DNA from: Eledone cirrhosa | Taxonomy: Eukaryota | Reading direction: 5' to 3' | Length of the DNA stretch: 64,000 nt | Assembly: GCA_964016885.1 (NCBI GenBank) | Contig: OZ024745.1 | Coordinates: forward strand, 100,192,001-100,256,000 | Part shown: positions 10,182-16,532 of the stretch, piece by piece | How the letters are laid out: the number at the start of each line of letters is the position of its first letter | Position numbering within the stretch: the first letter of the stretch is position 1 | Notes under the pieces: generated by a model | Database searches by the model: none | Seen by the model: only the letters and a program-made list of their open reading frames with translations | Told to the model about the DNA's origin: nothing | Position numbers and translations under genes: made by a program

Positions 10182-11638
10182 TCTCCTTATAATATATAAC
10201 CAGCAATTTCTCTGTCTGTCTGTCCGACGCATAGAGAAAGAGTGAGAGTGAAAGAAAGAGACAGACTACAAGAGGGGGATAGCGGGAGGGAGAGCGAGAG
10301 ACGCTGGAAGAGGGGAAGGAAAGCTATGTCTTGCTGTCTGCATTACGATACACATATATATACACGCACACACTGAGCGCGTCATAATGACGTAATGCAG
10401 ACAGCCAGACATACAGACAGATATTATAAGGGCGCAACGTTATATCTATGTATCTATCTAAAAAGAAAGACTAAAAATTATATAGAGAGAACGCTAAATC
10501 GCCTAATGCGGTCCCTAGGCATTGAAAATTTGAAATAATTTTTGCTCAAAACACTCACAGGACCATAAGTATTACATGTGGAAAGTTTGAAAACAATCGG
10601 TTGGATGGTTCTCAAGTTTTAGTGAGCTGACAGACAGACAGACATTCTCTGTTTTAGATATATAGACTAGCAGAAAACCACACGGTGGGCGGTTTTCTGC
10701 TAGTCTATATATATAAAACTGAGGATGTCTGTCTGTGTGTGTGTGAGTTCGAATCCCTAAAACTCGAGAACCACCCAACTGACTGTTTTCAAACTTTCCA
10801 CATGTAATACTTATGTTTCAGGGAGTGTTCTGAGCAAAAATTCAAATTTTCAATGCCCTAGGGACCGCATTAGGCGATTTAGCGATCTCTCTCTATAATT
10901 CTTAGTTTTTCTCTTTTTAGATAGATACATACATATAACGTCGCGCCCTTATAATATCTGTCTGTATGTCTGGCTGTCTGCATTACGTCACTTCCTTGAG
11001 GATGTCTGTGTGTGTGTGTGTGTGTGTCTCTGTGTGTGTGTGTCTGTGAGTTTGAATCCCTAAAACTCGAGAAGTACTTAATCGATTTTTTTCAAACTTT
11101 ACATGTGTATTACTTATGTTTCAGGGAGTGTTATGCACATAAACAATTCAACTTTTTTTTATCTCCTAGGGCCCGCATTAAACTGCGTTTTTAAAGATTT
11201 TTAGGGATTTTTTGAGGCGTTACGTCAGACCGATTTCCTTGAAATTGTAACTATGTATTAGTCAGTCTCTTCTTCATACCGTAGGCAAGGAAAATCCAAC
11301 TTTCTTATGGCCTAGGGACCGAATTAGGTGAAAAACTTCATTTTTTCAGCTTCTTAGGGCTTTTCGGAGGCGTTACGTCTAGCTGATTTTCCCAAAATTT
11401 CAAGGCATATTATGCACATAAAAAAATTTATTTTCTTGATCCCCTAGGGCCCGCATTTGGTGAAAACCTGCATTTTTCCTGCTTATCGAGGAAAACCTTA
11501 AAGATTATCCAGCCATCAGAGTATTCGGTTTATTTTCTTTACATATTGTCCAGGCATGCAGTTTTTCCCCGATTAGGTCTGTTGGCGGCCCGCGTTACAA
11601 AATACCTTATCCCGTGCAACGCCGGGTACCACTGCTAG
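10182..11638 (+). mobile_element. Composite non-autonomous Helitron-like element(s)
   Basis: A|TC 5' start at 10182. 3' hairpin CCCGTGCAACGCCGGG followed by CTAG|T at 11638. Internal CTAG|TCTATATATATAAAA junction at 10703/10704 and (CTGT)n subterminal microsatellites. Confidence 0.7.
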
Positions 11639-14473: not shown

Positions 14474-14627
14474 CATATATATATATATATATATATATAT
14501 GAATGAATGTATAGTATATTTTATAATATACTCTATGTTTATTTAAAAACATTTTGAAGACCATTCGCTATGAGTTTTAAAGTAGTGACTATGTCACTTA
14601 CTTTGTGTCAGCAAAAATAATAAAGGG

Positions 14628-14668
14628 AAGCAACCGACAGCTGTTTCTCGTTTCTTAACGGTTATCAA
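14628..14668 (-). ncRNA. Hammerhead ribozyme core, U3-A8 variant, 5' strand of stem I lost
   Basis: Minus strand reads TTGATAA-c-CGTT-aaga-AACG-a-GAAAC-AGCT-GTC-GGTTGCTT. Confidence 0.55.
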
Positions 14669-14735
14669 GCTCTTAAACATCACCGGAATTCTATAAGAAT
14701 CCAGCTTCGATAAGTCTCGGCAGAAGCGAGGGGAT

Positions 14736-14784
14736 AAGCAATCTTGATAACTGTTAACAAATGACAAACAGCTGTCGGTTGCTT
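14736..14784 (+). ncRNA. Type I hammerhead ribozyme, U3-A8 variant, GAAA mutated to CAAA
   Basis: Stem I AAGCAATC/GGTTGCTT (8 bp, one GU), core TTGATAA, palindromic stem III ACAGCTGT, GUC site at 14774-14776. Confidence 0.55.
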
Positions 14785-14984
14785 CCCTTTATTTTTGCCG
14801 AGACAAAGTAAGTGACATAGTCACTACTTTAAAACTCATACTGAATGGTCTTCAAAATGTTTTTAAATAAACATACAGTATATTATCAAATATACTATAC
14901 ATTCATTCATACATACATCACTATTTCAGAGCACTGATACTAATATATATATTAGTTTTGTGAGTTTTTTTTAGACATACAATG

Positions 14985-15255: not shown

Positions 15256-15296
<41 letters not shown>

Positions 15297-15424
15297 AAAG
15301 TTTTATTTAAAATTGTTGGGTTACAACAAGTAAATATTTTATAACTGATATAAAGCACTCGACAAGTTTTTGGAGTAGATATACAATATTAAACAAATGG
15401 AAACTATATTTATAAAACCATATT

Positions 15425-15490
15425 TATTTCATTATACATATTTCAGGGATACCATATTAAAAATATGGCATGCCTTCGTCAGATAAAATA
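15425..15490 (-). ncRNA. Type I hammerhead ribozyme (mirror copy)
   Basis: Exact reverse complement of 15592-15657. Confidence 0.7.
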
Positions 15491-15591
15491 CAATATATAA
15501 ACAGTTTTATAAATAATTTTGACGTACCATAATATAAGCGACCATTAAATTATGGTACGTCAAAATTATTTATAAAACTGTTTATATATTG

Positions 15592-15657
15592 TATTTTATC
15601 TGACGAAGGCATGCCATATTTTTAATATGGTATCCCTGAAATATGTATAATGAAATA
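15592..15657 (+). ncRNA. Type I hammerhead ribozyme
   Basis: Stem I TATTTTAT/ATGAAATA, core CTGACGA (15600-15606), stem II AGG-c-ATGCCATATT-ttt-AATATGGTAT-c-CCT, GAAA (15638-15641), self-complementary stem III ATATGTAT, AUA cleavage triplet ending at 15649. Confidence 0.7.
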
Positions 15658-16532
15658 AATATGGTTTTATAAATATAGTTTCCATTTGTTTAATATCGTA
15701 TATATATATATATATTTGTAAAATAATGAGAAGAAGTCAACACAAGGAAGCTGTCAAAACACCAAAATGCTGTCAATGACAGCATTGAGTAAAATTTACA
15801 TCAAAGGATAGAAATCAGTGGCTAGAAGTGTGTTGGTCTCTAGAAACGATAGGAAAAAAAGAAATAAGGGAGAAAATAGATGAGAGAAGATCATACAAAT
15901 ATTTAAATATACTTATATCAAAGGCATGTATTGAGTTAGAAACTCCAAATAGTCTCATTACAGTAAAATTAGCTCTAGGAAAAGGTATAACTGAACAAAA
16001 AAGAAAAACGAACACAGACATATACATCTATGTGTTCAAATCGTAATGGACCAGAATCGCTAAGGTGGAAAAAATACTAACTACATACAATAGGGTTTGT
16101 TAGACTCAATTTAAGAATAAATCAAGAAAGCTTTTAGACCGCCTGTGGTTTGACAATTTAACTAAAAGTACCATGTAGAATAGATGGCTCATGCAATAGT
16201 TTGTGTGATAACTTTGTTTGTATACACACACACACACATATATATAATATATATATGCCTATATACATATATATATATGTAATGTGGCCGTGTAGCTAAC
16301 ATGGTAAAAAGTTCCCAGTTCCACACTGTAAATGTGGTTGGTGTTAGGAAGGGCAACCAGCCGTAGAAAGCCTGCCAGATAGTCCCATACGAGCGAGACA
16401 CGGTCACCCGACCAACCTTGCCTCAAGTGACACAACTCCCATCTAACCTATGCTAGCGTGGAAGATGGATGATAAACGATGATGATGATGATATATATAT
16501 ACACCACCACCACCGCCTTGAGCTGTAATGAA

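What the first reader, a model, noticed from the sequence alone, without database searches (positions are those of the whole stretch)
14499..14910. Second foldback element with a U3-A8 hammerhead core, each arm broken in a complementary way
Seen: both arms have TTGATAA in place of CTGATGA and AAAC-AGCT-GTC. The right arm keeps an 8-bp stem I but has CAAA for GAAA; the left arm (minus strand) keeps GAAA and stem II CGTT/AACG but lost the 5' strand of stem I at the inversion point. Known: positions 3 and 8 form a tertiary pair, so C3-G8 to U3-A8 is compensatory. Inference: an older, different family with the same outward-facing architecture as the 15.4-kb palindrome. CUGANGA-only searches would miss it.
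Basis: partly seen in the sequence, partly recalled or inferred. Interest (0 to 1): 0.75.

Follow-up and report, generated by a model that had tools for sequence, protein, structure and literature searches.

The report
Dead copy of Penelope-riding hammerhead repeat
This is one decayed, mirror-image insertion of a small non-coding repeat whose family carries a hammerhead ribozyme fold with an already published U-A core swap plus a less familiar mismatch beside the core, and it was likely copied around the genome by Penelope-type retrotransposon enzymes, so it is a variant of a known kind whose cutting is still untested.

Summary
The motifs are real. The element runs 14499-14944 and is two back-to-back pieces of one 315-nt repeat unit, joined at 14668/9 inside a (TA)n tract. 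Of 90 family arms covering the ribozyme, 88 have U3-A8 and 75 an intact core. Genome-wide core counts are U-A 244, C-G 65, U-G 24, C-A 6, and one well-supported branch separates U-A from homologous C-G families. Stems covary. The 'complementary' breaks are unrelated: a 5' truncation and a private G12C. In 31 of 34 two-armed loci only one arm has a ~30-nt tail, the Penelope-like (PLE) footprint. U3-A8 hammerheads and opposite-strand pairs in PLEs are in print (PMC4209133). Less familiar: a lineage-wide C·A mismatch at 10.1·11.1, and arms that almost never pass the previous cut site (1 tandem pair genome-wide), so this is not a tandem retrozyme. No autonomous partner and no RNA data were found. 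The scan noted similar U3-A8 and two-armed PLE repeats before, in this genome and others. Verdict: real, known kind, modest twist.

The parts
14475..14500 (.). (TA)n target tract, left side
   Evidence: sequence; nearly all family arm ends run into (TA)n
14499..14669 (-). left arm: unit positions 127 to ~302, 5'-truncated, ends at the short 3' site (no tail)
14628..14669 (-). left-arm hammerhead remnant: U3-A8 core, stem II, GAAA, palindromic helix III and stem I 3' strand; stem I 5' strand missing; does not fold as the ribozyme hairpin (z = +1.07)
14668..14669 (.). junction of the two arms, 2-nt microhomology (AG)
14668..14944 (+). right arm: unit positions 53 to 328, 5'-truncated, ends at the long 3' site
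14715..14802 (+). extended stem I (18-bp outer helix, small bulge, proximal helix) enclosing the ribozyme
   Evidence: fold -41.9 kcal/mol, z = -7.7; conserved with base changes in sister families
14736..14784 (+). right-arm type I hammerhead: U3 14744, A8 14749, C10.1 14751, A11.1 14764; predicted cut between 14776 and 14777
14765..14765 (+). private G12C change (catalytic guanine lost); two CpG-type changes in stem II at 14752 and 14762
14911..14944 (+). ~30-nt tail present on this arm only (PLE-type second 3' end)
14943..14952 (.). (TA)n target tract, right side
   Evidence: sequence

Best explanation
This is a two-armed, inactivated insertion of a dispersed 315-nt non-coding repeat whose family carries a type I hammerhead fold with a fixed U3-A8 pair, and it was likely written into a (TA)n tract by a Penelope-like element (PLE) reverse transcriptase/endonuclease acting in trans. 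Shown: the family, the 315-nt permuted unit, the core covariation, the two fixed 3' ends, the (TA)n targets, and the lesions in this copy. Inferred: the PLE protein nicks both strands of the AT-rich target and copies the RNA from each nick, one arm starting at the short site and the other at the long site ~30 nt further 3'. Each cDNA stops at a variable point and the two are joined by microhomology, which gives the outward-facing foldback. Inferred: the ribozyme of the master elements was under selection to fold (compensatory changes in stems I, II and the palindromic helix III) and probably cuts slowly or as a dimer. Inserted copies, this one included, decay neutrally.
For: Family: 510 first-look candidates, 40 scored, other copies 84-97% identical; unit 315 nt and read head-to-tail across its boundary. 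Architecture: 37 of 130 loci with mapped arms are abutting two-armed insertions; of these 31 have one tailed and one short arm, 2 short+short, 1 tail+tail, 3 unclassified (31 of 34, binomial p 8e-7). The neighbouring 15.4-kb family shows the same rule in 24 of 24 two-armed loci (108-nt tail), and one of its long arms carries a 222-aa frame with CxC/VVY-YVG/C-C-H motifs that I read by eye as a PLE endonuclease (Pfam gave no hit). PMC8557442 (passages) describes partial tandems, an inverted 5'-truncated copy, a 30-40-bp tail at one end and (TA)n targets for PLEs. PMC11167929 (parts 1-2 of 4) shows both strands nicked and extended, with two RT start sites that bound the tail. Ribozyme: U-A 244 / C-G 65 / U-G 24 / C-A 6; on 22 distinct hand-picked rows from five families, 12 of 14 pairs change on both sides, covariation score 0.589 against 0.06-0.13 for slid controls; helix III palindrome AGCT 67, GGCC 11, single changes 5 of 83; self-duplex -11.1 and -14.1 kcal/mol against +2.4 for the hairpin. 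Neutral decay: core mismatches 13/371 against 348/8645 elsewhere in copies found without the ribozyme (p 0.79).
Against: No autonomous PLE sharing this unit's sequence was found, so the mobilising enzyme is inferred from footprints alone. The 10.1·11.1 pair is mismatched in most of the superfamily (18 of 22 rows unpaired), which may weaken or abolish cutting. The active fold is 2-7 kcal/mol above the minimum-energy fold in all six family majorities. The contingency counts are not independent events: the tree needs only one switch. PMC11167929 found ribozyme cutting dispensable for PLE insertion in vitro.
Confidence: 0.85

Rival explanations
1. A classical non-LTR retrozyme: tandem transcripts are cut to monomers, circularised, and copied round the circle, with arms ending because the RT displaces its own cDNA poorly after one turn.
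For: 315-nt non-coding unit with a full-size type I hammerhead, strongly self-paired (z = -6.7); arms read through the unit boundary; the chance of stopping rises from 0.19-0.33 per 50 nt before one turn to 0.56-0.83 after it; PMC7229834 (passages) and bioRxiv 10.64898/2026.07.22.740005 (parts 1-3 of 5) describe such elements.
Against: Tandem arrays are absent: one pair of cut-site motifs 290-320 nt apart in the whole genome, and 1 clear two-core arm among 130 loci. The same genome's RT copies arms of 2.6 kb.
Confidence: 0.25
2. The repeat moves as a linear ~1.5-unit transcript from an internal promoter; the hammerhead is an inherited, now nearly silent passenger that is not needed for copying.
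For: The arm-length cap (3 of 107 arms pass the previous cut site, 18 expected from an exponential fit) fits a transcription start as well as a cut; arm 5' ends near the cut site are spread over 35 nt, not sharp; two non-standard core features; ribozyme mutants still insert in vitro (PMC11167929); 8 of 9 Xenopus retrozyme dimers did not cut.
Against: Compensatory changes in stems I, II and III and at 3-8 persist across families 17-30% apart, which is hard to keep without selection on the fold.
Confidence: 0.3
3. A MITE or foldback DNA transposon with long terminal inverted repeats in TA sites.
For: Long inverted arms flanked by TA.
Against: Arm lengths and inner junctions differ at every locus, many copies are single-armed, the two outer ends differ by a tail, and the unit is permuted head-to-tail.
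Confidence: 0.03
4. The two broken ribozymes at this locus complement each other or were disabled on purpose.
For: One arm lacks stem I, the other G12.
Against: They lie on opposite strands; a read-through RNA forms a ~180-bp duplex; truncation points vary among copies; G12C is private; copies decay at the background rate.
Confidence: 0.02

Closest known systems
U3-A8 minimal hammerheads of Schistosoma mansoni Cercyon PLEs (Cervera & de la Pena 2014, PMC4209133; parts 1-2 of 4 read)
   Same: U3-A8 core (about 1,300 hits there), palindromic helix III implying dimer action, dispersed single motifs, pairs 100-700 bp apart on opposite strands
   Different: Here the ribozyme is full-size (6-bp proximal stem I, U-led 3-nt bulge, 6-nt loop II, long outer helix), sits in a 315-nt non-coding unit, and has C·A (A·A, G-C or G·U in sister families) where that paper reports a highly conserved G10.1-C11.1
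Animal non-LTR retrozymes (Cervera & de la Pena 2020, PMC7229834, passages; Li, Clavereau & Pollet 2026, bioRxiv 10.64898/2026.07.22.740005, parts 1-3 of 5)
   Same: ~300-nt non-coding, self-paired unit with a canonical-size type I hammerhead; proposed PLE dependence; the axolotl HHR_Amex2 has a U·U mismatch at the base of helix II
   Different: No tandem arrays here (1 pair genome-wide); insertions are single or two-armed and capped near 1.5 units; circular RNA not shown
EN+ Penelope-like insertion units (Craig et al. 2021, PMC8557442, passages; Frangieh et al. 2024, PMC11167929, parts 1-2 of 4)
   Same: Partial tandem, inverted 5'-truncated copy, ~30-nt tail at one end only, (TA)n targets, AC-rich sequence at the 3' ends
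   Different: No ORF; no autonomous element with a homologous pLTR was found
Natural hammerhead core variants (Perreault et al. 2011, PMC3088659, passages)
   Same: C3-G8 to U3-A8 covariation seen in nature and active in vitro; U10.1·U11.1 tolerated
   Different: A C10.1·A11.1 mismatch combined with U3-A8 is not mentioned in the passages read; that study's filters reject mispairs at 10.1-11.1

Membership tests
Type I hammerhead ribozyme | Core C3/U3-U4-G5-A6-N7-G8/A8-A9, G12-A13-A14-A15.1, U16.1-H17 with a 3-8 pair | tested here: met
   Family: 75 of 90 arms intact, 88 of 90 U3-A8. This copy's right arm fails (G12C) and its left arm lacks stem I.
Type I hammerhead ribozyme | Helix I closing round the core, with covariation | tested here: met
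   6 of 6 pairs change on both sides, 88% of cells paired
Type I hammerhead ribozyme | Helix II with a Watson-Crick 10.1-11.1 pair next to the core | tested here: not met
   The three outer pairs covary, but 10.1·11.1 is C·A in 76 of 83 F1, A·A in 24 of 25 F2, C·A in 10 of 14 F4, G-C in 3 of 3 F3. An alternative reading is one extra base on each side of a 3-4-bp stem.
Type I hammerhead ribozyme | Helix III (A15.1-U16.1), weak and palindromic in animal forms | tested here: met
   2-bp stem with AGCT or GGCC loop; self-duplex -11 to -14 kcal/mol
Type I hammerhead ribozyme | Self-cleavage after C17 | not testable with these tools
   No assay; no RNA run listed
Non-LTR retrozyme | Non-coding unit of ~170-400 nt with one type I hammerhead | tested here: met
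   315 nt, fold z = -6.7
Non-LTR retrozyme | Tandem repeats with at least two consecutive complete ribozymes | tested here: not met
   1 pair genome-wide at 290-320 nt spacing, exact 12-mer, and its second core is mutated; 1 clear case among 130 loci. Units of other length, such as family G, fall outside that search.
Non-LTR retrozyme | Circular and linear monomer RNA in cells | not testable with these tools
   No RNA holder listed
Non-autonomous Penelope-like element | Partial tandem / permuted unit and inverted 5'-truncated partner | tested here: met
Non-autonomous Penelope-like element | 30-40-bp tail at one end only; (TA)n target | tested here: met
   31 of 34 classifiable two-armed loci; ends run into (TA)n
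Non-autonomous Penelope-like element | Homology to the pLTR of an autonomous PLE in the same genome | tested here: inconclusive
   None in the loci held; PLE endonuclease relics near some copies were not contiguous with them; no genome-wide screen of PLE ends was possible
MITE / foldback DNA transposon | Fixed structure with equal terminal inverted repeats | tested here: not met
   Variable arms, unequal ends, single-armed copies

The most novel reading that the evidence does not exclude
A hammerhead with two departures from the standard core at once (U3-A8 and a C·A mismatch at 10.1·11.1, kept through several subfamily expansions) still cuts in vivo, and its cut sets the 5' end of the RNA that PLE reverse transcriptase copies. 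The template would be a linear ~1.5-unit RNA, cut at the upstream ribozyme and uncut at the downstream one. That would explain why arms stop short of the previous cut site (3 of 107 pass) and why short arms cluster just 3' of the cut (13 of 37). It would give a retrozyme-like element that spreads without tandem arrays or circles, and a ribozyme class invisible to descriptors that demand a 10.1-11.1 pair.
Probability: 0.3. Interest if true: 0.6.

Novelty: new variant of a known kind. Interest (0 to 1): 0.33.

Why it matters
The locus itself is a dead copy of a known kind of element. The family is still useful in two ways. It is a natural series of homologous hammerheads that differ at the 3-8 pair (C-G or U-A) and at 10.1·11.1 (C·A, A·A, G-C, G·U), so one can test how far the core can drift and still cut. 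And its insertion lengths are capped near the previous cut site, which bears on the open question of whether PLE-associated hammerheads have to cut for the element to spread (PMC8557442 calls their function unclear; PMC11167929 found cutting dispensable in vitro).

Tried and rejected
Rfam scan of the window: no hammerhead family at E<=10. Expression: no RNA holder listed; the three runs laid are contigs of unrecorded kind from one sample and only confirm that the window copy's three ribozyme changes are private. Autonomous partner: tblastn and ORF lists over all loci held, inspection of L217, L218, L225, 3' regions of six endonuclease relics and a search with a C3-G8 sister copy found none. 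Pfam did not name the L091 frame and the Atlas could not read it, so its PLE label rests on motifs read by eye. A model with both arms primed on one 1.5-unit RNA (tail arm always the short one) was rejected: tailed and short arms can each be the longer. A hard wall at the previous cut site was rejected: 3 of 107 standard arms pass it, and 4 of the 36 arms dropped for non-standard 3' ends nominally pass it too (L050, L059, L166, L167). Post-insertion selection on the core was not seen. The direction of the C-G/U-A switch could not be rooted. One F1 copy (L167) was misfiled as F4 by my classifier, which is why F1 and F4 need two changes on that tree. Lunse et al. 2016 on PLE hammerhead variants could not be opened; it and unread supplements of PMC4209133 and PMC7229834 may already hold the C·A variant.

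Full report
What is there. The window lies in a 3.0-Gb animal genome; that it looks cephalopod is my recall of its SINEs plus earlier notes, not a test. The element is longer than stated: a left arm on the minus strand (14499-14669) and a right arm on the plus strand (14668-14944), joined by a 2-nt microhomology and flanked by (TA)n. Rfam finds no hammerhead in the window at E<=10.

The family. A search with the centre gave 510 candidates, of which 40 were scored; other copies are 84-97% identical. Their flanks show a 315-nt unit that is read head-to-tail across its own boundary. I fetched more copies by a query outside the ribozyme, by patterns and by place; 130 distinct loci had mappable arms. 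This is a sample: only the best 40 candidates per DNA search and the first 100 of 244 pattern matches were listed. In the window the left arm is unit 127-302 and the right arm unit 53-328.

The ribozyme. Of 90 arms at least 86% identical to the reference that cover the whole motif, 88 have U3-A8 and 75 keep all 11 core positions; in copies found without using the ribozyme the figures are 24 and 19 of 25. The right arm's G12C and two CpG-type stem II changes are private. With the same downstream motif the genome holds 244 U3-A8, 65 C3-G8, 24 U3-G8 (8 of them in one local array) and 6 C3-A8 matches; reversed controls gave 0, 0, 0 and 1. These fall into homologous families: F1 (this one), F2, F3 and F4 with U3-A8, and G and H with C3-G8. 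F1-F4 align at 73-83%, and F4 and H share a 3' region at 73% (E 7e-15). A tree of 33 copies separates the two groups by one branch at 100/100, so the counts record one switch, not hundreds, and the root is unknown. On 23 hand-picked, consensus-like copies from F1-F4 and H (22 distinct), 12 of 14 named pairs change on both sides; the score is 0.589 against 0.06-0.13 for slid controls. The geometry is that of a full-size type I hammerhead: a 6-bp proximal stem I, a bulge with an invariant U, a 6-nt loop II and a long outer helix; that this matches the S. mansoni loop-bulge contact is recalled, not tested. Helix III is a palindrome that changes from AGCT to GGCC in one subfamily (67 and 11 of 83, single changes 5) and pairs far better between two molecules than within one, as described for dimer-acting animal hammerheads (PMC4209133). 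The active fold lies 2-7 kcal/mol above the minimum-energy fold.

The pair next to the core in stem II is mismatched: C·A in 76 of 83 F1, A·A in 24 of 25 F2, C·A in 10 of 14 F4, C·A as the commonest state in H (8 of 19, with 6 CpG-type T·A), G-C in 3 of 3 F3, G·U in 18 of 22 G. U·U at this place is published (PMC3088659, PMC7229834; passages). One targeted search for C10.1/A11.1 found nothing relevant, but the most pertinent paper could not be opened and I read no supplements.

How it inserts. Arms end at two fixed 3' sites about 30 nt apart, both running into (TA)n. Among 37 abutting two-armed loci, 31 pair a tailed arm with a short arm, 2 are short+short, 1 tail+tail and 3 unclassified (p 8e-7 on 31 of 34). 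The unrelated, younger 15.4-kb family obeys the same rule in 24 of 24 loci, older relatives included, with a 108-nt tail; one of its arms is 2.6 kb long and carries a frame I read as a PLE endonuclease (no Pfam hit). This is the PLE footprint described in PMC8557442 (passages) and explained by two internal RT start sites and nicking of both strands in PMC11167929. I found no autonomous element sharing the U3-A8 unit. Copies decay neutrally (core 13/371 against 348/8645), so the two 'complementary' lesions here are an ordinary truncation and an ordinary point change.

An unexplained cap. Of 107 arms with standard 3' ends that cover the ribozyme, only 3 reach past the cut site of the previous unit, where an exponential fit predicts 18; the chance of stopping per 50 nt rises 0.19, 0.30, 0.33, 0.56, 0.83. 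I dropped 36 arms with non-standard ends or low identity; 4 of them nominally pass the site. Genome-wide, one pair of cut-site motifs lies 290-320 nt apart. The shorter arm of two-armed loci begins within 35 nt 3' of the cut site in 13 of 37 cases, against 5 and 2 in the neighbouring windows (post hoc p 0.004). A cut 5' end, an internal transcription start, RT stalling in the long stem, or poor strand displacement on a circle could each give this, and the spread of ends does not single out cleavage. No RNA run was listed.

Against what is known. U3-A8 in nature (PMC3088659) and in PLE hammerheads, with pairs on opposite strands (PMC4209133), is published, as is the PLE link of animal retrozymes. 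The family works like a retrozyme-type PLE parasite but fails the tandem criterion, so I file it as a non-autonomous PLE-type element, with its driver not found. Two searches pairing hammerhead or retrozyme with octopus or cephalopod terms listed no report of this family, and a recent octopus repeat annotation does not mention ribozymes in its main text (PMC13282606). The scan's own notes hold similar U3-A8 and two-armed repeats in this genome and others; none matched this DNA by sequence.

Verdict. Observation confirmed; interpretation partly supported; new variant of a known kind; interest 0.33.

Noticed in passing
window ~15294-15706; L061-L092: The 15.4-kb palindrome is a two-armed insertion of a young family (top 40 hits about 99% identical) with a canonical C3-G8 hammerhead, a 108-nt tail on the left arm only, and in L091 a 2.6-kb arm carrying an endonuclease-like frame: likely the pLTR end of an active PLE.
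   Followed up: partly
L217:3600-4200, L218:2700-4050: A second, unrelated U3-A8 family (F5): minimal hammerhead with a 3-bp stem I and canonical G10.1-C11.1, also as two-armed (TA)n insertions; a decayed PLE frame lies 1 kb from one copy but is not contiguous with it.
   Followed up: partly
L191:757-790: A U3-A8 hammerhead-like motif about 360 nt downstream of a PLE endonuclease-like relic; a possible autonomous element with this core.
   Followed up: no
G000:C1:348839237-348962770: Eight U3·G8 copies of family G spaced mostly ~9.6 kb apart, next to one C3-G8 copy (L103): a local tandem array that inflates the mismatch count; L103 also holds a cysteine-rich frame that looks interleukin-17-like by recall.
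   Followed up: no
L225:3963-3993: A single C3·A8 hammerhead-like motif with a GC-rich stem II and G10.1-C11.1; one copy seen.
   Followed up: no
L217:2928, 3348, 5482, 6208: Another hammerhead family (C3-G8, palindromic helix III, C/U·A at 10.1·11.1) in tandem at 420-nt spacing and as an inverted pair.
   Followed up: no
window 10500-10880: A further long palindrome centred near 10690 (source of the spurious microRNA hits); no hammerhead found in it by my scan.
   Followed up: no
window 37929-63939: A 50-bp satellite of about 520 copies with strong GC skew fills the last 26 kb of the window.
   Followed up: no
L019, L036, L146: Copies of different U3-A8 subfamilies sit side by side in the same (TA)n region, suggesting repeated use of the same target tracts.
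   Followed up: no
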